Source of the DNA: an uncultured virus (IMG/VR IMGVR_UViG_3300037743_000227)
Lineage: Duplodnaviria; Heunggongvirae; Uroviricota; Caudoviricetes
Length of the DNA: 20,000 bases
IMG/VR virus record: IMGVR_UViG_3300037743_000227
Direction: 5' to 3' (one strand)
Shown here piece after piece: positions 4,683 to 17,282 of the stretch. Both the position numbers and the translations under genes were made by a program. Numbering within the stretch: the first letter of the stretch is position 1; each line of letters begins with the position of its first letter. Below the pieces are notes generated by a model that had not been told where the DNA came from, ran no database searches, and saw only the letters and a program-made list of their open reading frames with translations.

Positions 4683-4963
4683 ACCAGCCCACCGCCGAGG
4701 ACATCGCCGCCCTGCGTGCCGACGGCGACCTCCACGACTACCTGCTCGCCCTCACCGGCCGCACCCCCGCCCCCAAGCCGGCCCCGCTCGCTGCGGCTCC
4801 GGATCCCGGCTATCGGATCGCGCACACCGGCGGCTGGCCCATCGGCACCGCCGCCACCGGGCCGACCCCGACGCACGGCCGCTGCACCTGCCCGAAGTGC
4901 GCGCAAGCCGACGTCGTCCAACTGCCCCAGCAGCACCAGCACCAGACAGGAGAAGCCGCATGA
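4679..4963 (+). CDS. Hypothetical protein
   Basis: ATGA coupling at both ends; CTCPKC motif. Confidence 0.7.
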
Positions 4964-6414
4964 CCAGCATCGAATGGACCGAGCAAACCTGGAACCCGAC
5001 CACCGGCTGCGACCGCATCAGCCCCGGCTGCGATAACTGCTACGCCCTGACGATGGCCAAGCGGCTGAAGGGCATGGGGCAGGCCAAGTACCAGAACGAC
5101 GGCGACGCCCGCACCTCCGGACCCGGCTTCGGACTCACCGTCCACCCCGACGTCCTCACGGATCCGCTGCGCTGGAAGAAGCCCCGCCGGATCTTTGTGA
5201 ATTCAATGTCCGACCTGTTCCATGCCCGGGTACCGGACGAGTTCATCGCCCGCGTGTGGCAGGTCATGGGAGTCACTCCCCAGCACACTTTCCAGATCCT
5301 CACCAAGCGTGCCAAGCGTATGGAGTCCTGGACGAACCGCTGGTACTCCGGTGAGATCCCCGAGCCCTACGACGTCCGCTCGATCCCCGGATACGAGGGC
5401 TACAGCGTGACGACCCACGGGGAAGTCCTCGGTAAGCGCTCCGACACCCGCGGCGGCTTGAAGCTCGACGCCGGCGAGCAGGGGCACCTCCGCGCGCCGC
5501 TCTACCGAGCCGCAGGGCACTCGCCGAAGCGCGAACTCGTGCACCGCCTCGTTCTCACAGCCTTCGTCCGGCCGCCCCGCCTGGGAGAGCAGGCGTGCCA
5601 CCGGAACGGTGACCCGTCCGATAACCGCCTCTCCAACCTCTACTGGGGCACCCAGGGCGACAACTGGCGCGACCGCCTGACCCACGGGAACGGCCGGTCG
5701 TACCAGAAGCTCTCCGAGCAACAGGTCTCGCAGATAAGGGAGCGCCACGCAGCGGGCCAATCCGCCTACTCCATGGCCAAGGACTACGGAGTCTCGGACA
5801 CCCAGATCCGAAACATCGTGATGAATCGCCAGTGGGCGACCGCGCACCTGGTCAAAGTGCCGACCCCGGCTCCGGCCCGCGTCGTGCTGGACAACTGCTG
5901 GTTGGGCACGAGCGTCGAGAGCCAGAAGTACGCCGACATCCGTATACCCGCCCTGCTGGGGGCCCCGGCCGCCGTCCGTTTCCTGTCGTGCGAACCCCTC
6001 CTCGGCCCGGTCCGCCTCACCCATCAGGACCACACGGACCACGAGCGGGACTGGGACGGCGACTGGATCTGCCTCGGCTGCTCCACGGACGAGGAGCATG
6101 TCCCCTGGCGGACCGTTGACCGCCCCAGTCTCGACATCGACTGGGTCATCATCGGCGGCGAATCCGGTCCCGGCGCCCGGCCGTTCGATCCCGAGTGGGC
6201 GGCCGACCTGATCAGCGACGCCCGCCGAGTCGGCGCGGCCCCGTTCGTGAAGCAGCTCGGATCGGCTTGGGCCCGCGACTACACCGTGGCCGGGAAGAGC
6301 GTGGCCGCCCATGGCGACACCAAGGGCGGCAAACCCGAGCACTGGCCGGCCGACCTCCGAGTCCGCGAGTACCCCGTCACCGCTGGAACCGGGCTCCGAG
6401 GTGAGGCCGCCTGA
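4960..6414 (+). CDS. DUF5131 / phage Gp37/Gp68 family protein with in-frame HNH endonuclease insertion
   Basis: [71 protein letters not shown]; insertion between LTKR and NxWLG motifs. Confidence 0.9.
5365..5850 (+). mobile_element. NUMOD4-like + HNH + HTH homing-endonuclease-like module within DUF5131 (boundaries approximate)
   Basis: [74 protein letters not shown]. Confidence 0.8.
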
Positions 6415-10598: not shown

Positions 10599-11597
10599 GT
10601 GAACCACGAACCCGCCGCGCTCGACCGCCGCGCGGCCGAAGCCCAGCCACACCCACCCGCCCGACTGAAGCTGGACGAACTGACCAGCGACCAACTCGAC
10701 CGGCTGTACGCCGAACTCGAAGACCAGCGCGGCGCCAAGCAGACCGCCGCCGGAGCAGCCGACCGGTTCCGCGACATCCTCTGCGAAGCCCTCAACCACG
10801 ACGACGACAACCCCGGCGACGATGTCCTCGTAGCCGAACTGCGCGCGCACTTCGGCAAGACCGGGCCTGAGCCGACCAACTGGCGCGTGCGACTTGCCGG
10901 ATACGGAGCCGTCCGCGACCAGATCAACGCCGCCGCCCGCGCGTCGTCCGCCCCGGCACCGGCCCAAGCGACCGACTCCACGGCCGCGCGAACCGCCCGC
11001 ATCCGCAGCCTCACGCTGCCCGCATCAGGCCGCCAACTCGACCCACACCTCAGCCGCCGACTGCCCGGGATCCTCCATCTCGGCCACCGCCCCACCAGCC
11101 TCGACATGGCGCTCATCGCCGAAGCGGCAGATGTGTCGGTGGACTGGCTGCTGCACGGCGACGCGGACGAGAGCGAGGCCACATGCAACAGCTCGTGCGC
11201 GGACGTCCCCGGAATCCGTGGCCTGCTGGAGCACGTCGGTATCGACACCCGCGGCCGGGACATCACCGTCGCTGGCCGGGCGGTCGACCCCGCCGACCAG
11301 CAGCCGGCCGCCGCGTGGACGCCGCCCCCGCCCGGCAGCACCCGCGAACAACTCCCCAACCACATCCTCGACATCGCCCGCCCACACCTGCCCGACTACC
11401 TGTCCACCGCATGCCAGACCGCCGACGTCGTCGCATGCGCCGCCTGCTACCCCAGGTCCGGCATCCCTCGCCCGCAGTACGACGAACTCCGCGCGCACGC
11501 CGAACGGCTCCACAACCGTTGCCGCCGCAATCACAAGTTCACCGGTCAACTTTGTGTCTGCGGCTGCCACCCCGACCAGCCCAAGGAACAGCAGTGA
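10599..11597 (+). CDS. Mosaic hypothetical protein with partial Xre-type HTH and Cys/His C-terminus
   Basis: AGGAG RBS; LIAEAADVSVDWLLHG; CRRNHKFTGQLCVCGCH. Confidence 0.72.
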   Translation: MNHEPAALDRRAAEAQPHPPARLKLDELTSDQLDRLYAELEDQRGAKQTAAGAADRFRDILCEALNHDDDNPGDDVLVAELRAHFGKTGPEPTNWRVRLAGYGAVRDQINAAARASSAPAPAQATDSTAARTARIRSLTLPASGRQLDPHLSRRLPGILHLGHRPTSLDMALIAEAADVSVDWLLHGDADESEATCNSSCADVPGIRGLLEHVGIDTRGRDITVAGRAVDPADQQPAAAWTPPPPGSTREQLPNHILDIARPHLPDYLSTACQTADVVACAACYPRSGIPRPQYDELRAHAERLHNRCRRNHKFTGQLCVCGCHPDQPKEQQ

Positions 11598-12385
11598 CCG
11601 ACAGCAGCGCGCTCGGCGACCGCATGAAACGCTACGAGGCCACGACTCGCACGCTCCTGCCCCGCCGCACCTTCTCCATTTGCCGAGTGGACGGCCGCGC
11701 CTTCCACTCCTACCTTCGCGGAGCAGCGAAGCCCTTCGACGAGCAGTTCATGGCAGACATGGACGCCGTCGCCGAAGCCCTCTGCACCGAGATCGCCGGA
11801 GCCCGGTTCGCCTACACCCAGTCCGACGAGATCAGCATCCTGGCCACGGACTTCGGCAGCCACAACACCGAGCCCTGGTTCGGTGGCGTCATCGCCAAGC
11901 AACTCTCCATCGCCGCATCCCTGGCGACGGCCGTCCTCAACGAACGCCGCCCCGGCCGCGCCCTGTTCGATGCCCGCGTGTTCACGATCTCCGATCCGGT
12001 GGAGGTGGCGAACTACTTTCTGTGGCGGCAGAGGGACTGCGTCCGCAACTCGATCTCGATGGCCGCGCAAGCCCACTTCTCCCACCGCCGTCTGCACGGC
12101 GTGAACAGCGGCGGCATGCAGGAACTCCTCCACGCGGAGGCTGGGGTGAACTGGAACGACTACCCCGACGGCTGCAAGCGTGGACGCGTCACCGTGCGGC
12201 GGGTCGGGGAGCGGGAGACGACGTTCACGGACAAGCGGACCAGCACGCTGAAGACCGTGGTGGCGATGCGGTCGTGGTGGGAGAGCAGCGCGGCGCCGCA
12301 CTTCACGACGGAGCCGGAGGGGTTCCTCGCCGAGATGGTGCCGCCGCTGCCCGTGCTCGGCGGCTTCACGTCCGTGGCATCCTGA
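11594..12385 (+). CDS. tRNA(His) guanylyltransferase Thg1-like protein (3'-5' nucleotidyltransferase)
   Basis: RMKRYE, RVDGRAFH, YTQSDEIS, WFGG..K, FDAR, YFLWRQRDCVRNS, GVNWNDYP..KRG; catalytic Asp residues present. Confidence 0.95.
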   Translation: MTDSSALGDRMKRYEATTRTLLPRRTFSICRVDGRAFHSYLRGAAKPFDEQFMADMDAVAEALCTEIAGARFAYTQSDEISILATDFGSHNTEPWFGGVIAKQLSIAASLATAVLNERRPGRALFDARVFTISDPVEVANYFLWRQRDCVRNSISMAAQAHFSHRRLHGVNSGGMQELLHAEAGVNWNDYPDGCKRGRVTVRRVGERETTFTDKRTSTLKTVVAMRSWWESSAAPHFTTEPEGFLAEMVPPLPVLGGFTSVAS

Positions 12386-12974: not shown

Positions 12975-13154
12975 TTACCCGTTCGGCGCGCCCGGCTCCG
13001 GCAACTCCGCCCACACCTGCGCCGCCAACAAATCCGCATCCTCCCGCGACGTGCCCGCCTTCACCAAGACAATCCCGCGAGAACCGTCCGGGAACGTCAC
13101 CTCCCGCGCCTCCGTACCCAACGGACCCGGCGTCGGCCCCTCCGACTCCGACAT
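12975..13154 (-). CDS. Hypothetical protein, 59 aa
   Basis: GGAG RBS, ATG at 13154, ends just before terminator. Confidence 0.65.
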   Translation of the reverse strand: MSESEGPTPGPLGTEAREVTFPDGSRGIVLVKAGTSREDADLLAAQVWAELPEPGAPNG

Positions 13155-13194
13155 GGCGGCTCCAATCGTCGGCGAGACAGTCACCGTAACGAGA

Positions 13195-13222
13195 AGCGCC
13201 CCCGCCAGACGGCAGGGGCGCT
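13195..13222 (-). terminator. Terminator-like hairpin
   Basis: AGCGCCCC-c-GCC-agac-GGC-a-GGGGCGCT downstream of the minus-strand operon. Confidence 0.6.
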
Positions 13223-13237
13223 ATCGCGTTCGGGTGA

Positions 13238-13372
13238 TCAAAGCTCCGTCAGTCGGTACGGCGAGGGCAGCGGTGGCAGGGGCACGCCGAGCGCATCACC
13301 CAGCAGGGCGCGCGCCACGGCCTCACGCTCCCACACCGGCCGGCCGGGCGGCATCGACAGCAGGGCGGTCAG
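13238..13372 (-). pseudogene. Probable 3' gene remnant directly after the HNH gene
   Basis: High-GC3 frame LTALLSMPPGRPVWEREAVARALLGDALGVPLPPLPSPYRLTEL* lacking a clear RBS. Confidence 0.45.
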
Positions 13373-14073
13373 GTGCCGCCCTCTCGTTTCTCTCGCCAAT
13401 ACTTTTGGCGGTCTCGTTCGCGCCTACACTCGCGGCAATGGCGCCTGTTTCCGTACTGGTAGGTATTCTCCGCCGTGAAGCGGTGGCCGTTCTTGCAGAC
13501 TTCGATTGGGAGTCGGGGTGACGTCTTACGCTCTCTCTGCTGCTCCCTCGCCCGGATGCACTCTCTACAGTGCCTGCCCTTTCCGTCGGGGCGCAGGTAG
13601 GTATTTTCCTCCGTGAAAGGGTGGCCGTGAACGCATGCCGCCTTGGACGCGGCGGTTAGATGTGAGCGATGCTGGTTCTCACGCGGCGTGACGGGCTCCA
13701 GGTGCTGCGGGTTGACGCAACGGCGGTGCAAGCAGGTGCTGCCGCCCAGGCAGGACGTGTCACCGTTGTGGCATGCGTGATCGATCCAGGCGCCTTCGGG
13801 TATCGGCCCGAAGGCAATCTCGTATGCCACGCGGTGGATGGGCTTCGAGGCTCCCTTTACGCTGACGTAGCCATACCCCTCCTTTGAGATTCGCCCAGTC
13901 CAATGGATGCAGCCGTTAGGCTGCGGAGCCATCTTCGCTTGCATGCGCTTTAGCACTGAAGCCTTTTGTTGATCCCACCAGTCCTCGTAGCAGCGCGGGC
14001 AGCGACCACGGTTGAGCTTCGGTCGGTGTTCGCCACAGTCGCTGCAATATCCCGGAGTAGCGGGCCTAGCCAT
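13369..14073 (-). CDS. HNH homing-type endonuclease with Zn-binding repeats
   Basis: GCIHWTG..GYG..IHRVAYE..IDHAC..CVNPQHLEPVTPREN; two CxxGHxFTxENTY..CREC repeats; visibly more AT-rich codons. Confidence 0.9.
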   Translation of the reverse strand: MARPATPGYCSDCGEHRPKLNRGRCPRCYEDWWDQQKASVLKRMQAKMAPQPNGCIHWTGRISKEGYGYVSVKGASKPIHRVAYEIAFGPIPEGAWIDHACHNGDTSCLGGSTCLHRRCVNPQHLEPVTPRENQHRSHLTAASKAACVHGHPFTEENTYLRPDGKGRHCRECIRAREQQRERKTSPRLPIEVCKNGHRFTAENTYQYGNRRHCRECRRERDRQKYWREKREGGT

Positions 14074-14539
14074 GCTGGCCGCTTACCCGGAAGCGATACT
14101 CGGCGCGCACCTCGACGAGTCGGCGGTGTGTCTCCCGCATCTGCTTCAGACGGCCGGCCAGCGTGGTGATGAGCGTCTCCAGACCGTCGGGATCGAGACC
14201 GTCGATGAAGTGGTCGTCCACCAGCTCGACGACCGCGAACGGCAGCCGCTCCGCGAGCTTCGAGGACCACGGCTCGACCTTGATGACGGTGGAGAGAACA
14301 CGGAACTCTTCCGGTGAGCCGTTCTCGTTGACCGGCAGAGTCAGGTCCTCGCTCCAGAACCAGCACCAGATGTCCTCGGGGAAAACTTCGCGGCCCATCT
14401 CGTGGCTGTGGTCGAGGGTGCAGCCGTCCATGCAGGTGTATGTGACCGGCTGGCCCGTGTGGCGGTTGATGAAGGACCAGGTGCGGGGCGTGACGGACGC
14501 CGCAGGAGCGGGGGCGGGTGCAGGTACTACAGTGGTCAC
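14066..14539 (-). CDS. DUF6907-like hypothetical protein
   Basis: GTG at 14539 after AGAGG; TCMDGCTLDH..EDIWC..LDPDGL pattern (family recalled, not searched). Confidence 0.7.
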   Translation of the reverse strand: MTTVVPAPAPAPAASVTPRTWSFINRHTGQPVTYTCMDGCTLDHSHEMGREVFPEDIWCWFWSEDLTLPVNENGSPEEFRVLSTVIKVEPWSSKLAERLPFAVVELVDDHFIDGLDPDGLETLITTLAGRLKQMRETHRRLVEVRAEYRFRVSGQHG

Positions 14540-14638
14540 GGAACTGCCTCTCTTGCAGGGAGTGGGTTTCGTTGATCGGCGAGGTGCAACTCGCTGGTCG
14601 AAATGGCCGGGCGGGTGCAACCGCTCGGCCTTTCGTGT
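14540..14638 (+). ncRNA. Putative antisense RNA with twin GUGCAA-loop hairpins
   Basis: Hairpins 14574-14599 and 14605-14630 with identical loops and G-U pairs on + strand; TTTCGTGTT tail; TACAGT -10 at 14528-14533. Confidence 0.55.
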
Positions 14639-14648
14639 TCTACGGGGC

Positions 14649-15131
14649 CTACTTCGGCACTCTGAAGTGCTGGTGCCGCTTGGCGAGGGCACCTTCGCGG
14701 ACCAGTTCGCTGAGGGCATGGAATGCGGTGAGTGGTGAGACGCCGAACTGTTGCGCGACTTTGGCGCTTGGAAGGTAGGTGTCGGGCTTGTAGTCGCCTC
14801 GCGCGAGTGCTGAGCGCATAGCCTCTCGAACCGCTTCCCGCTCGGCCGTGTCGTCGTACCTACGCGCCTTCTGTGGCCATCCTCGCCCGAGTTGGTGGTA
14901 GCCGTTGTATAGCGGGCGCTCGTCCTTCATGGCTGCGGCTTCGGCCTTCAGGGCGTCGTCGCGACTGTCGAGCCAGGTGATCTCGCGGCGCGTGACGTGA
15001 TGCCACCAAGCCTTGTCGCCCGCATGCTCCTTGAAGCGCTCGTTCGGGTAGGTGCTTATGCCGACATAGAGCAAGGTGCCCTTGTCGCTGTAGAGGCGGT
15101 AGAGCGCGGTGCGTTCGGGTGCTTCGGGCAT
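14649..15131 (-). CDS. GIY-YIG nuclease-like domain fused to GntR-type wHTH
   Basis: TALYRLY..LLYVGIS..RFKEH..AEAAAMKDERPLYN, then GDYKPDTYLPS..VAQQFGVS..ALSELVREG; AGGAG RBS. Confidence 0.85.
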   Translation of the reverse strand: MPEAPERTALYRLYSDKGTLLYVGISTYPNERFKEHAGDKAWWHHVTRREITWLDSRDDALKAEAAAMKDERPLYNGYHQLGRGWPQKARRYDDTAEREAVREAMRSALARGDYKPDTYLPSAKVAQQFGVSPLTAFHALSELVREGALAKRHQHFRVPK

Positions 15132-15228
15132 GCCGCTCCTAACTGAGCGTGTGGCGGCGACCACTCTCACTTGCTCGCAACTGTATTAGTAAATCCGCAC
15201 AGTGGCTAGTCCGTCACGGCGCCACGAA

Positions 15229-15254
15229 GCCCCCGACTCGTCCGAGCCGGGGGC
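15229..15254 (-). terminator. Terminator-like hairpin after GntR gene
   Basis: GCCCCCG..CTCG-tc-CGAG..CGGGGGC about 15 bp past the stop. Confidence 0.6.
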
Positions 15255-15268
15255 AGATTGGGTGGCGC

Positions 15269-16030
15269 CTAGAAGTCGTACTGCAGCTCGTACATGTGGC
15301 CAGCCTTCGCCATGATCTCTGCTTGGATCGGACGGTCGTCGGTGCTGAACGTGATGCGGAACGTGCGCAGGACCGGGAGCTTGGTCGGCATCTGGAGGGC
15401 CGAGTACTGCTCCGGCGTCGGCAACTGTGCCGAAACTCTGTCCTCGCAGCGGATGCTCGGGTAGCCGAGGTCTTCCAGCACCCGGCCTGATCCGCCTCGA
15501 AGGAGGTGGTTGTTCATCAACTTCGTGCCTGCCGCAATGTCGAGTGGGAGGTACACCTCGACAAGTTCGCACGGCTCGCCGTCGAGTGAGAGCACTTGTC
15601 GGCGCAGTAGCGCGAGTTCGCTCTTGTCGAGCTGGAAGGCCTCCCGCACGGCGGCTGGCGGAACGACCTTGCCCACATGCAGCAACTTCGCCTTCGCGGT
15701 CATGCCGCGCTTCTCGTTCTCCGCCAGCCACTGGTACTTCTCGCCCCGTAGCGCCGGGTTCTTGTAGGCGGCCGGGCGCATGGTCAACTGCCGGTGGTGG
15801 CGCACGATCACGCCGCGCCCCTGCTCGGCGATCACCAGGCGCTCGCTCGTGAGCGTCGCGATTGCGGCCCGGACGGTGTTCGATGCGACGCCGAACTGCG
15901 ACACGAGCTGCCGCAGGGACGGCAACTTCTCGCCCGGTTCAAAGTCGCCGTTGATGATCCGGTCGCGGATGTAGGCGGCGATCTGCTCCTGAGAGGACCA
16001 GACACTGCCGTCGGGTCGTTCATCTGCCAT
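15269..16030 (-). CDS. GntR (HutC/UTRA) transcriptional repressor, KorSA-like
   Basis: QIAAYIRDRIINGDFEPGEKLPS..FGVASNTVRAAI..QGRGVIV plus C-terminal UTRA domain. Confidence 0.92.
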   Translation of the reverse strand: MADERPDGSVWSSQEQIAAYIRDRIINGDFEPGEKLPSLRQLVSQFGVASNTVRAAIATLTSERLVIAEQGRGVIVRHHRQLTMRPAAYKNPALRGEKYQWLAENEKRGMTAKAKLLHVGKVVPPAAVREAFQLDKSELALLRRQVLSLDGEPCELVEVYLPLDIAAGTKLMNNHLLRGGSGRVLEDLGYPSIRCEDRVSAQLPTPEQYSALQMPTKLPVLRTFRITFSTDDRPIQAEIMAKAGHMYELQYDF

Positions 16031-16032
16031 GG

Positions 16033-16569
16033 TCAGCTCACCTTCATCGAGTAGTTGAGCTGCCCGATGCGGCCGGGGGCCACGCTGACGAACACCTCGT
16101 AGGGCTGGCCGGAGCCGTCTTTGATTGTTCGGCGGAGAGTGAGCACCCACTCGCTGGAGCCTTCGATCGCGAGAGCCTCCCGCTCCGCGCCTGTGCCCGG
16201 ACGCGTCCGAACGTTCTCGATGACTTCCGCTGGCTCGTATCCCAGGCTTGCGAGCAGCGTCGGTGCACCGCCCTTCACCTTGCCCGGGGCGGCCAGCGCC
16301 GTGCCGGCGGCCACGGCCGGCGGCCAGTAGGAGTCCGCGAGCTCGACGGGGATGTCGTCGAGGAGGATCAGCCGGCGTCGCAAAATCACGGGCTGGCCTT
16401 CGGGTAGGTCCAGTGCGGAGGCCACCTCGTCGGGAGCGGCGGTTTCGCCCGCGAACAGGATTCGCTGCGTTCCGGTGCGCCCCTGCGTCGCAGCCTCTTT
16501 GCCCCAGGCGTCACCCTGGTTGGGGCGGATGTAGGGCGCTGAGGCGCCAGTCCAGTGGGCGTCCGTCAC
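16033..16569 (-). CDS. Stand-alone UTRA-domain protein (no HTH)
   Basis: VILRRRLILLDDIPVELADSYWP..GGAPTLLASLGY..ENVRTRP; GGAGG RBS before GTG at 16569. Confidence 0.85.
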   Translation of the reverse strand: MTDAHWTGASAPYIRPNQGDAWGKEAATQGRTGTQRILFAGETAAPDEVASALDLPEGQPVILRRRLILLDDIPVELADSYWPPAVAAGTALAAPGKVKGGAPTLLASLGYEPAEVIENVRTRPGTGAEREALAIEGSSEWVLTLRRTIKDGSGQPYEVFVSVAPGRIGQLNYSMKVS

Positions 16570-16683
16570 GCGCACCTCCGTCGGTCGTCGACTCCTTCAT
16601 CTGTATTGAACACCTTGCCAACGATAAGCCCAGTTCAGGTGCCTCCGGGGAGCGGATGAGAGTGATTGACGCCTGAGCAACTG

Positions 16684-16712
16684 TTGCAACTAATCGGCAC
16701 AGCTAATACAGT
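16684..16712 (+). promoter_or_regulatory. Sigma70/HrdB-type promoter of rightward operon
   Basis: TTGCAA (16684-16689), 17 bp, TACAGT (16707-16712). Confidence 0.7.
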
Positions 16713-16752
16713 CGAGGCATCGACAACCCCTACTCCTGGATTGGAGAGCCCG

Positions 16753-16971
16753 ATGCTGCCTGCGGCTCAAAAGCTGCTAACCGCAGGAGAGGCCGCAGTC
16801 GCGCTGCGGGTCTCCAAGCCGACGATCTACCGGTGGATCGACGCCGGATATCTGCCTGCCATCCGCTACGGACAGCCCCGGGCGGAAGGCGACACGAGGC
16901 GTGGGGGAGCCATCCGAATTCCCGAGGCCGCCGTCCTGGCGCACCTCACTCCTACCGAGGAGGCGGCATGA
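16753..16971 (+). CDS. Excisionase-like HTH_17 DNA-binding protein
   Basis: LLTAGEAAVALRVSKPTIYRWIDAGYLPAIR..GAIRIP; GGAG RBS. Confidence 0.88.
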   Translation: MLPAAQKLLTAGEAAVALRVSKPTIYRWIDAGYLPAIRYGQPRAEGDTRRGGAIRIPEAAVLAHLTPTEEAA

Positions 16972-17282
16972 CCACCACATTCCCCCGCCCCACCGCCCCG
17001 CTTCCGCCGCTCGCCGCCCCGGCCGTCGTCCGGGCGGTGACCCGCTTCGAGGTCGCCTCCGCCCGTACCGCCGAGCTGTCGGCGCTGATGGACACTCGCG
17101 ACCTGTCCGGGGTTGAGTTCGACGCGTTCGAGTTCGCCCAGGACGTGATGCGCGAGTCGGTCGCCGCGCTCGCCGGCGCCGGGATGCTGCACCTCGTGGC
17201 CGCCGAGCACGAGAAGACGAAGGACGAGCTCCCGAAGCGTCCGCGTGGCCCGCACCCGCAGTATGCGAAGGCGGTGGCGTGA
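16968..17282 (+). CDS. Hypothetical protein
   Basis: GGAGG RBS, ATGA overlap. Confidence 0.75.
   Translation: MTTTFPRPTAPLPPLAAPAVVRAVTRFEVASARTAELSALMDTRDLSGVEFDAFEFAQDVMRESVAALAGAGMLHLVAAEHEKTKDELPKRPRGPHPQYAKAVA

What the first reader, a model, noticed from the sequence alone, without database searches (positions are those of the whole stretch)
14525..14640. Twin-hairpin antisense RNA / pseudoknot switch in the leader of the DUF6907-like gene
Seen: two adjacent 10-bp hairpins with the same GTGCAA loop, a T-rich tail on +, and a TACAGT -10 inside the first codons (rare ACT GTA GTA) of the opposite-strand gene. On the mRNA the loops read UUGCAC, and a complementary UGCAA lies right before the RBS (CCCUGCAAGAGAGG). 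Known analogy: IncI repZ activation by a loop-to-pre-SD pseudoknot blocked by Inc antisense RNA; phage antirepressor control by antisense RNAs. Inference: an RNA-level switch controlling this gene and the downstream HNH.
Basis: partly seen in the sequence, partly recalled or inferred. Interest (0 to 1): 0.72.

Follow-up and report, generated by a model that had tools for sequence, protein, structure and literature searches.

The report
Conserved antisense RNA over DUF6907 leader
A small structured RNA, probably made from the strand opposite the start of a gene of unknown function in Streptomyces prophage-like elements, most likely keeps that gene silent, and it appears to be an undescribed RNA family.

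Summary
The window holds two 10-bp hairpins (14574-14599, 14605-14630) with identical GTGCAA loops, a T-rich tail, and TACAGT (14528-14533) inside codons 2-4 of the opposite-strand DUF6907 gene.

The element recurs in 35 copies. A sampled search found it in 14 of 151 Streptomyces genomes and in 0 of 150 other genomes of the same class.

Three results point to a roughly 100-nt plus-strand RNA, antisense to the DUF6907 5'UTR and Shine-Dalgarno:
- **Structure:** 24 of 31 base pairs show compensatory changes.
- **Strand:** 72 G·U pairs against 3 A·C pairs.
- **Promoter and end:** TAnnnT is present in 35 of 35 copies, built from rare GTA/TTA codons, and the T-tail is strand-specific.

The RNA has three hairpins: SL0, which carries the anti-SD, SL1, and the terminator SL2.

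The proposed loop-to-pre-SD pseudoknot (IncI repZ-like) is not supported. The complementarity is at chance level and is not conserved.

No RNA data could be obtained, so transcription and repression are inferred. Rfam has no match.

Unexplained: the SL1 and SL2 loops are identical within 7 of 35 elements, in four different loop types.

Verdict: a new member of a known kind, the cis-antisense sRNA.

The parts
14528..14533 (+). -10 promoter hexamer TACAGT of the antisense RNA, lying in codons 3-4 (ACT GTA) of the DUF6907 gene
   Evidence: TAnnnT with T1, A2 and T6 invariant in 35 of 35 elements, while the middle bases vary (CAG, AAG, AGG, CGC, CGA, GAC and others). G sits two bases upstream in 22 of 35. 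The hexamer is built from rare codons: GTA is 19 of 20 Val codons at codons 2-5 against 8 of 298 elsewhere.
14538..14542 (+). Predicted transcription start of the antisense RNA (inferred, about 6-8 nt after the hexamer; G14540 is most likely)
   Evidence: Inference from the usual -10-to-start spacing in actinobacteria, which is recalled knowledge. No RNA data are available.
14540..14570 (+). SL0, the 5' hairpin whose 5' arm is the CU-rich anti-Shine-Dalgarno (CCUCUCU, 14547-14553)
   Evidence: Folds in the window and in each of 33 elements. After realignment with model R2, all 8 pairs show changes on both sides and 82.3% of cells are paired. Stability is modest: mean -10.1 kcal/mol, mean z -1.17, against -6.0 and -0.58 for the mRNA strand.
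14574..14599 (+). SL1, a 10-bp hairpin with loop GTGCAA
   Evidence: 5 of 8 modelled pairs have compensatory changes and 98.9% of cells are paired across 35 elements.
14600..14640 (+). SL2, the intrinsic-terminator-like hairpin. The stem is 14605-14630 with loop GTGCAA. An outer helix pairs GAAA (14600-14603) with UUUC (14631-14634). The T-rich tail runs to 14640.
   Evidence: Terminator scan, plus strand only. 6 of 10 inner pairs and 5 of 5 outer pairs show compensatory changes. Four or more T in the 10 nt after the stem occur in 31 of 35 elements, against 5 of 35 for the mRNA direction.
14537..14553 (-). Translation initiation region of the DUF6907 mRNA (SD GAGAGG 14553-14548, GTG start 14539-14537). 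It is fully complementary to the 5' part of the antisense RNA.
   Evidence: start codon and purine-rich SD aligned across homologues.
14066..14539 (-). DUF6907 gene (157 aa), the presumed target
   Evidence: Pfam PF21848, E 2e-19. 235 homologues at E <= 1e-5; every organism named by a source is Streptomyces. No fold match.
14649..15170 (-). Upstream GIY-YIG + GntR-type winged-helix fusion gene. Its stop codon (14651-14649) abuts the SL2 tail.
   Evidence: Pfam GIY-YIG and GntR. The same kind of gene lies upstream of the element in many loci.
15269..16150 (-). GntR/UTRA (HutC-type) regulator gene further upstream on the same strand
   Evidence: Pfam GntR 5.6e-21 and UTRA 1.2e-18. GntR, UTRA or GIY-YIG genes lie within about 1.5 kb upstream in 20 of 32 loci examined.

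Best explanation
The region encodes a cis-antisense small RNA of about 100 nt on the window's plus strand. Transcription starts from a -10-only promoter (GnTAnnnT) that sits inside codons 2-4 of the minus-strand DUF6907 gene. The start is about at the complement of the start codon (~14540). The transcript runs through three hairpins (SL0 with a CU-rich anti-SD arm, SL1, SL2) and ends at SL2, an intrinsic terminator (~14640). Because it is perfectly complementary to the whole 5' leader and Shine-Dalgarno of the DUF6907 mRNA, it most likely pairs with that leader, possibly starting by loop-loop contacts at SL1 and SL2. Pairing would block ribosome binding and create a long duplex for RNase III. 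This would uncouple DUF6907 from the upstream GntR-type regulator genes, with which it appears to be co-transcribed. What is shown: conserved structure, strand polarity, and a conserved promoter-like and terminator-like anatomy. What is inferred: that the RNA is made, that it represses, and by which route.
For: (1) Conservation. Covariance model R1 finds full-length copies only at homologous loci (81-130 bits; the best unrelated hit among 87 sources is 25.8 bits). It hits 14 of 151 sampled Streptomyces genomes.
(2) Structure. Across 33 elements, 95.9% of cells pair and 16 of 23 pairs have changes on both sides; 0 of 500 shuffles reach this, and slid controls give 35-50% paired. With SL0 added (35 elements), 24 of 31 pairs covary.
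(3) Strand. There are 72 G.U against 3 A.C cells in the plus orientation. RNAalifold gives -36.9 kcal/mol (plus) against -25.0 (mRNA strand). The MFE is lower for the plus orientation in 31 of 33 elements (mean difference -9.6 kcal/mol); control segments of the same loci give +3.5 +/- 9.0, negative in 44 of 132.
(4) Promoter. TAnnnT is present in 35 of 35 elements at a fixed place with a variable interior. It is made from codons that are otherwise rare: GTA 19/20 against 8/298, TTA 5/9 against 4/294, A/T-ending codons 49% against 12.6%. It is kept even where the downstream protein is not DUF6907.
(5) Terminator. The scan lists SL2 on the plus strand only, and T-tail polarity is 31/35 against 5/35.
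(6) The window's predicted transcript folds with z = -5.24. The mRNA-strand stretch 14520-14660, which contains the complement of that transcript, folds with z = -1.72.
Against: There is no transcript evidence of any kind: no RNA run was listed. The simple sigma-70 scan finds no promoter here, because there is no -35 match. The alignments used for pair counts were fitted to the models, which leans the counts towards the structure, and the sequences are related, so the shuffle controls overstate significance. Part of the T-tail pairs with an upstream GAAA, which could weaken termination. Four DUF6907 homologues (L010, L011, L013, L015) lack the element, so the gene does not require it. Six of the 35 elements have no convincing downstream ORF. 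The direction of regulation is untested. The identical SL1 and SL2 loops are not explained by simple cis-antisense pairing.
Confidence: 0.65

Rival explanations
1. The RNA is made from the plus strand as described, but its main role is in trans. It could be a protein-binding or sponge RNA whose two identical loops bind one (dimeric) partner, or a CU-rich anti-SD sRNA acting on other mRNAs. Its overlap with the DUF6907 leader would then be secondary.
For: The SL1 and SL2 loops, together with their closing G-C pair, are identical within 7 of 35 elements, in four different loop types (GTGCAA, GTGCGAA, GTACGAA, GTGATGA), although the adjoining stem bases differ. Permuting loops among elements gives a mean of 0.88 identical pairs and at most 5 in 10,000 trials. 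Six of the 35 elements have no clear downstream ORF. The anti-SD arm ACCUUCUCUCUGG is conserved beyond what an SD needs.
Against: Loop identity holds in only 7 of 35 elements. The loop 8-mer GGTGCAAC has no other copy on either strand of the 20-kb window, and the 7-mer is at chance level (5 against 3.4 expected). The same loop type (GTGATGA) occurs with very different downstream proteins. The position over a start codon and SD is kept in 29 of 35 elements.
Confidence: 0.12
2. The function lies on the mRNA strand. The hairpins would be the terminator or attenuator of the upstream GntR-type gene, plus a structured 5' leader of DUF6907. The plus-strand -10-like hexamer would be incidental, for example A/T-rich early codons that ease translation initiation.
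For: SL2 starts within a few bases of the upstream gene's stop codon (window 14649; L007 2991 against the element at 2986). Helix 2 (GAAA/UUUC) gives the hairpin a short U-run in the mRNA direction too (AUUUC). No sense-strand promoter is visible between SL2 and the start codon, so read-through control would matter.
Against: G.U against A.C is 72:3 in favour of the other strand. The mRNA-strand fold is weaker in 31 of 33 elements and unremarkable in the window (z -1.72). A T-tail is present in 5 of 35 for this direction against 31 of 35 for the other. The terminator scan lists no minus-strand site here. General A/T-richness would not fix T, A and T at exact spacing in 35 of 35 elements.
Confidence: 0.1
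3. One reading: an IncI repZ-like switch. A loop of the mRNA hairpins (UUGCAC) would pair with UGCAA just upstream of the SD to form an activating pseudoknot, and the antisense RNA would block this.
For: In the window the 5-nt complementarity exists, and both loops carry it.
Against: The own-leader complementarity (mean 3.36 nt; 5 nt or more in 3 of 33) does not exceed that between loops and leaders of different elements (mean 3.58; 12.2%). L007 and L008 have UUGCAC in at least one loop, and L004 has UUCGCAC in both, yet all three have CCAGAGAG- or GCAGAGAG-type pre-SD sequences without the complement. L138 has the window's pre-SD sequence but different loops. No conserved leader ORF is seen in the aligned leaders.
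Confidence: 0.03
4. DNA-level element: the two inverted repeats are operator sites for the neighbouring GntR-family proteins. The loop cores resemble the GT-N3/4-AC pattern that I recall for GntR operators.
For: GntR/UTRA and GIY-YIG-GntR genes lie next to the element in 20 of 32 loci. Identical cores at two sites about 31 bp apart that differ between elements would fit a co-evolving repressor.
Against: The arms of the two repeats differ from each other within one element, which is the opposite of what a shared protein would require. The mismatches are almost all G.T on one strand (72:3), which double-stranded DNA recognition would not produce. The GGT..ACC symmetry axis is offset from the stem axis (read). 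The core does not recur in the likely regulatory regions at 15171-15268 or 16576-16665. It does not resemble the motif reported for the KorSA homologue SCO3932 (passages of PMC8584621).
Confidence: 0.05

Closest known systems
sar RNA of Salmonella phage P22 (cis-antisense RNA against the ant ribosome-binding site); recalled from the literature, not fetched here
   Same: A short phage-encoded RNA is made from a promoter inside the target region. It is complementary to the target's ribosome-binding site and ends at a terminator hairpin. The target gene lies downstream of regulator genes in the same operon.
   Different: This element differs in host clade and sequence. It has three hairpins and is about 100 nt long. 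Its promoter is embedded in the first codons of the target, and the target is a DUF6907 protein of unknown role. No experimental evidence exists here.
SymR/SymE and RalA/RalR type I toxin-antitoxin pairs (cis-antisense RNA over the 5' end or RBS of a protein-toxin gene); recalled
   Same: A constitutive-looking small antisense RNA covers the translation initiation region of a mid-sized protein gene on a mobile element.
   Different: There is no evidence that DUF6907 is toxic. It has no PADLOC or NCBIfam match and no fold match.
   Same: A stem-loop antisense RNA is complementary to the leader of the regulated gene.
   Different: The defining loop-to-pre-SD pseudoknot was tested and is not conserved. 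No leader peptide was seen. There are three hairpins rather than one.
kor-pif-pra regulatory module of actinomycete integrative and conjugative elements such as pSAM2 (passages of PMC2440964 and PMC8584621)
   Same: The gene neighbourhood is similar: a GntR-family repressor (KorSA-like), often a Nudix gene (Pif-like), followed by a small gene whose product is kept off.
   Different: No antisense RNA is mentioned in the AICE review ('antisense' occurs 0 times). DUF6907 has no tblastn match in the plasmid collection, so homology to Pra is not shown. The window looks like a prophage, with DnaB, DnaC-like and RepO-like genes.

Membership tests
Any Rfam 15 family | Covariance-model score at or above the family's gathering threshold | tested here: not met
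   The whole window at E <= 1 gives 5 weak hits, none in 14500-14660. The region alone at E <= 10 gives SorX as best hit, 17.7 bits against a gathering score of 46.6.
Cis-encoded antisense sRNA (general kind) | Own promoter on the strand opposite the target gene | tested here: met
   TAnnnT in 35 of 35 elements at a fixed position, and G at -14 in 22 of 35. This is sequence evidence only; activity is not shown.
Cis-encoded antisense sRNA (general kind) | Conserved secondary structure on the antisense strand, ending in an intrinsic terminator | tested here: met
   The terminator scan lists the plus strand only.
Cis-encoded antisense sRNA (general kind) | A detectable transcript of the predicted size and strand | not testable with these tools
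   No RNA holder was listed for the window sequence.
IncI/IncB Inc RNA-repZ pseudoknot switch | Conserved complementarity between the target-hairpin loop and a sequence just upstream of the SD | tested here: not met
   Own mean 3.36 nt against cross-element mean 3.58 nt; 5 nt or more in 3 of 33 against 12.2%.
IncI/IncB Inc RNA-repZ pseudoknot switch | Leader peptide whose translation is coupled to the regulated gene | tested here: inconclusive
   No conserved start codon is seen in the aligned leaders. The reading frame is open for variable lengths upstream. No dedicated small-ORF analysis was done.
Type I toxin-antitoxin system | The protein is toxic when the antisense RNA is absent | not testable with these tools
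   DUF6907 has no hit in PADLOC and no informative fold match.
Type III toxin-antitoxin (tandem RNA repeats upstream of the toxin on the same strand) | Functional RNA on the same strand as the protein gene | tested here: not met
   The strand tests favour the opposite strand.

The most novel reading that the evidence does not exclude
The antisense RNA is the RNA half of a specificity system of Streptomyces prophage- or AICE-like elements. The two loops, kept identical to each other yet differing between elements, would be recognition determinants. They could serve kissing with the twin loops of the element's own mRNA, or binding of a dimeric element-encoded protein. Each element would then silence only its own DUF6907-type 'go' gene. 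This would be an RNA-level immunity or kil-override layer on top of the KorSA-like GntR repressor.
Probability: 0.15. Interest if true: 0.75.

Novelty: new member of a known kind. Interest (0 to 1): 0.55.

Why it matters
If transcribed as predicted, this is an undescribed, covariation-supported small-RNA family. It was found in about one in eleven sampled Streptomyces species. It sits at a conserved junction between KorSA-like GntR regulators and a widespread gene of unknown function (DUF6907) on prophage-like elements. It offers a handle on what DUF6907 does and on how these elements keep a gene silent while expressing its upstream neighbours. It is also a clear example of a promoter written into the first codons of a high-GC gene with rare GTA and TTA codons. 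In some variants this puts a TTA codon at position 3, which in Streptomyces would make translation depend on the bldA tRNA (recalled knowledge). The same comparison shows that an attractive pseudoknot analogy drawn from one sequence does not survive comparison with homologues.

Tried and rejected
- **RNA evidence:** The look-up of sequencing runs for window:13900-15200, kind rna. No RNA holder was listed.
- **Window genome:** none is held.
- **Known phages and plasmids:** blastn of 13300-15300 against phages gave no match. tblastn of DUF6907 against phages and plasmids gave no match.
- **Collection scans with degenerate hairpin patterns:** After filtering with R1, the first scan yielded 4 new elements and the second none.
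- **DUF6907 function:** the AlphaFold2 model has pLDDT 77.3. The best Foldseek PDB hit is E 0.6. The best VIA-align wide hit is Z 4.5. PADLOC and NCBIfam gave no hit. The protein atlas gave no named neighbour. The Pfam family rings in 0 of 14 control genomes.
- **Loop motif as an operator:** KTGCAAC gives 5 matches against 3.4 expected. The repeat search found no further copy of the hairpins in 13000-17200.
- **SL0 by plain RNAalifold on the unfitted sub-alignment:** no consensus. It was supported only after model-guided realignment.
- **Earlier findings of this scan:** nothing by place, sequence or words.
- **Literature:** 'DUF6907' occurs in 0 papers. The searches 'Streptomyces + antisense RNA + prophage' (listing only), 'pSAM2/KorSA/pra' and 'Streptomyces cis-antisense RBS RNase III' (listing only) showed nothing on this element. 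PMC7157519 was checked by passages and is unrelated. PMC94408 is not held.

Full report
**1. What is in the window**

The window is high-GC DNA (65-72%). No whole genome is held for it.

Around the finding, four genes lie on the minus strand:
- a GntR/UTRA regulator (15269-16150),
- a GIY-YIG + GntR winged-helix fusion (14649-15170),
- a DUF6907 gene (14066-14539, GTG start, Pfam E 2e-19),
- an HNH endonuclease gene (13369-14073) that overlaps the DUF6907 stop.

To the left, the plus strand carries phage-type replication genes: RepO-like, DnaC-like, DnaB, DUF5131 and Thg1-like. To the right, a Xis/HTH_17 gene diverges from the minus-strand block.

- SL1 at 14574-14599 and SL2 at 14605-14630, each a 10-bp stem with loop GTGCAA;
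- the tail TTTCGTGTTC;
- TACAGT at 14528-14533 inside GTG ACC ACT GTA GTA.

All non-Watson-Crick pairs in the two stems are G-U on the plus strand, so they are A.C mismatches on the mRNA.

**2. Is it more than chance?**

Within the window alone, the repeated 8-mer is not significant.

The predicted plus-strand transcript 14540-14645 folds at -57.3 kcal/mol, z = -5.24. The mRNA-strand stretch 14520-14660, which contains its complement, gives z = -1.72. The terminator-like scan lists SL2 on the plus strand only.

The decisive evidence is comparative. Relatives of the DUF6907 protein were found in IMG/VR contigs and in Streptomyces chromosomes. The exact SL2 sequence occurs in two further viral contigs. 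Of 15 leaders aligned (two of them identical), 11 carry the twin hairpins and 4 do not (L010, L011, L013, L015).

A covariance model built on the plus orientation (R1) separated true elements (81-130 bits) from 80 unrelated GC-rich hairpin loci (25.8 bits or less). It found the element in 14 of 151 sampled Streptomyces species genomes, counting the centre genome. It found none in 150 other genomes sampled across the class. These are samples, so the element is 'not found in those searched', not 'absent'.

**3. Structure**

| Set | Cells paired | Pairs with changes on both sides | Shuffles reaching this |
|---|---|---|---|
| 19 elements | 96.7% | 9 of 23 | 0 of 500 |
| 33 elements | 95.9% | 16 of 23 | 0 of 500 |

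For the 33-element set, slid controls give 35-50% paired.

An outer helix (GAAM...KTTC) around SL2 also covaries, C-G to A-U. Part of the 'T-tail' is therefore paired.

A third, 5' hairpin (SL0) folds in every element. Its 5' arm is the CU-rich complement of the Shine-Dalgarno. After I built model R2 with SL0 included and realigned 35 elements, all 8 SL0 pairs showed two-sided changes, with 82.3% of cells paired. Overall, 24 of 31 pairs covary.

Caveats: these alignments are fitted to the models, the sequences are related, and SL0 alone is only modestly stable (mean z -1.17).

**4. Which strand?**

Four independent measures agree on the plus strand, which is antisense to DUF6907:

| Measure | Plus strand (antisense) | mRNA strand or control |
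|---|---|---|
| Non-Watson-Crick cells in modelled pairs | 72 G.U | 3 A.C |
| Same count on 19 elements | 43 | 1 |
| RNAalifold consensus energy | -36.9 kcal/mol | -25.0 kcal/mol |
| Per-sequence MFE lower for plus | 31 of 33 elements, mean -9.6 kcal/mol | controls +3.5 +/- 9.0, 44 of 132 negative |
| Four or more T in the 10 nt after SL2 | 31 of 35 | 5 of 35 |

**5. Promoter**

Every one of the 35 elements has TAnnnT at the same place, 0-6 nt from the complement of the start codon. T1, A2 and T6 are invariant, while the interior varies: TACAGT, TACGCT, TACGAT, TAAGGT, TAAAGT, TAGACT and others. G lies two bases upstream in 22 of 35. There is no -35 match, which is why the two-hexamer scan is blank.

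The hexamer is written with codons that these genes otherwise avoid (25 downstream ORFs):

| Codon measure | Codons 2-5 | Rest of the gene |
|---|---|---|
| GTA among Val codons | 19 of 20 | 8 of 298 |
| TTA among Leu codons | 5 of 9 | 4 of 294 |
| A/T-ending codons | 49% | 12.6% |

The hexamer is kept even where the downstream protein is not a recognisable DUF6907. Downstream genes break down as follows: DUF6907 in 20 of 35 elements, small ORFs without a Pfam match in 9, and no convincing ORF in 6. This points to a nucleotide-level constraint rather than a protein-level one.

I take the -10 consensus TAnnnT and the usual spacing to the start site in actinobacteria from recalled knowledge.

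**6. Most likely mechanism**

The anatomy is that of a cis-antisense sRNA: promoter, then a start at about the anti-start-codon, then SL0 (anti-SD), SL1 and the terminator SL2. It is perfectly complementary to the whole DUF6907 leader.

No sense-strand promoter is visible between SL2 and the start codon, and SL2 abuts the upstream gene's stop. DUF6907 is therefore probably transcribed by read-through from the GntR-type genes. The A.C mismatches would weaken the hairpins for that read-through.

I infer that the RNA pairs with the leader, occludes the SD and creates an RNase III substrate. This would silence DUF6907 while its upstream neighbours stay expressed. The steps 'is transcribed', 'represses' and 'by this route' are all inferences, because no RNA run could be listed.

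**7. The pseudoknot idea**

Loop sequences are not conserved. L007 and L008 have the window's loop in at least one hairpin, and L004 has UUCGCAC in both, yet all three lack UGCAA before the SD. L138 has the window's pre-SD sequence but different loops.

Across 33 elements, the longest Watson-Crick match between a loop and its own leader averages 3.36 nt, and it reaches 5 nt in 3 of 33. Against leaders of other elements it averages 3.58 nt and reaches 5 nt in 12.2%. The window's 5-nt match is therefore at chance level, and this defining feature of the IncI repZ system is not met.

**8. An unexplained regularity**

In 7 of 35 elements, the SL1 and SL2 loops with their closing G-C pair are identical to each other, although the neighbouring stem bases differ. 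This happens in four different loop types: GTGCAA, GTGCGAA, GTACGAA and GTGATGA. Several more elements are near-identical. Permuting loops among elements gives a mean of 0.88 identical pairs and never more than 5 in 10,000 trials.

Simple cis pairing does not require this. It may reflect a shared partner or loop-loop specificity.

- The same loop type occurs with very different downstream proteins, so DUF6907 itself is an unlikely partner.
- A DNA-operator reading is disfavoured by the differing arms and by the one-strand G.T bias. The loop core also does not recur in the likely regulatory regions.

**9. Context and comparison**

Upstream of the element lie GntR, UTRA or GIY-YIG(-GntR) genes in 20 of 32 loci examined. 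Nudix genes lie there in 4, and other genes in 8. L001 and L092 were not examined.

This resembles the KorSA (GntR) / Pif (Nudix) / Pra arrangement of actinomycete integrative elements (passages of PMC2440964 and PMC8584621). The review does not contain the word 'antisense', and homology of DUF6907 to Pra is not shown.

DUF6907 remains of unknown function:
- 235 homologues, and every organism named by a source is Streptomyces;
- invariant C36, C40 and H44;
- a beta-rich N-terminal domain plus a long C-terminal helix;
- no fold, defence-system or NCBIfam match.

Functionally, the closest known systems, all recalled, are P22 sar RNA and the SymR/SymE or RalA/RalR type of antisense control over a ribosome-binding site.

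Rfam 15 has no family for this RNA. 'DUF6907' appears in no held paper, and three further searches showed nothing on it (listings only).

**10. Verdict**

The antisense-RNA interpretation is supported by strong comparative evidence but not yet by transcript evidence. The pseudoknot switch is rejected.

This is a new member of a well-known kind, the cis-antisense sRNA. Two details deserve attention: a promoter encoded by rare codons at the very start of the target gene, and concerted evolution of the two loops.

Noticed in passing
L137:2013-2144 (minus strand of the locus): A second, weaker copy of the element (27.1 bits with R1, 38.9 bits with R2) lies just downstream of the DUF6907 gene of the same locus. 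It has TATGGT next to an ATG and an SL1 loop of GTGATGA. Only a 17-codon ORF follows it.
   Followed up: partly
L003, L008, L009, L146, L137 (codon 3 or 4 of the DUF6907 genes): In these homologues the -10 hexamer is supplied by a TTA leucine codon, the rarest codon here (4 of 294 Leu codons elsewhere). In Streptomyces, TTA codons make translation depend on the bldA tRNA (recalled). These variants may therefore be developmentally gated as well.
   Followed up: no
window 14649-15170 (-) and the equivalent genes in L008, L016, L223, L148, L149: A GIY-YIG nuclease domain fused to a GntR-type winged helix recurs directly upstream of the element. It therefore looks like a conserved part of the module rather than a stray homing endonuclease.
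   Followed up: partly
window 15153-15202 and 16650-16702: The AT-richer stretches upstream of the GIY-YIG-GntR gene and in the divergent GntR / HTH_17 intergenic region share a repeat (GCAACTGT...; repeats D9 and I1). They also share the words ACTGTATTAG and CTAATACAGT, and the second stretch holds the palindrome GTTGCAAC. These are candidate operators for the GntR proteins.
   Followed up: no
window 4897-6414 (+): A DUF5131 protein of 505 aa matches its family in two stretches, with an HNH_3 domain (residues 214-256) in between. This looks like an endonuclease or intein-like insertion in a phage gene.
   Followed up: no
window 15269-16575 (-): Two overlapping ORFs match the same family: a UTRA-only ORF (16033-16575) and a full GntR/UTRA ORF (15269-16150). 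L003 shows the same pair. This could be a tandem pair of genes or a frameshift.
   Followed up: no
window 14066-14431 (-), protein P0006: The public collection holds this window's DUF6907 protein only as a 121-aa form starting at residue 37. The homologue alignment and SD support the GTG at 14539 instead. Under the shorter gene call, the antisense promoter would look intergenic.
   Followed up: partly
L280, L282, L288 (Streptomyces genomes): Three related elements keep TACGAT, SL0, SL1 and SL2 (SL2 loop TCTCTACA), but no start codon sits beside the hexamer and only very short ORFs follow. They may be decayed targets or free-standing RNA genes.
   Followed up: no
window 11183-12385 (+): A Thg1-like tRNA-His guanylyltransferase homologue (Pfam Thg1 1.2e-19, phrog_4717 6.8e-70) lies in the prophage-like region.
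   Followed up: no
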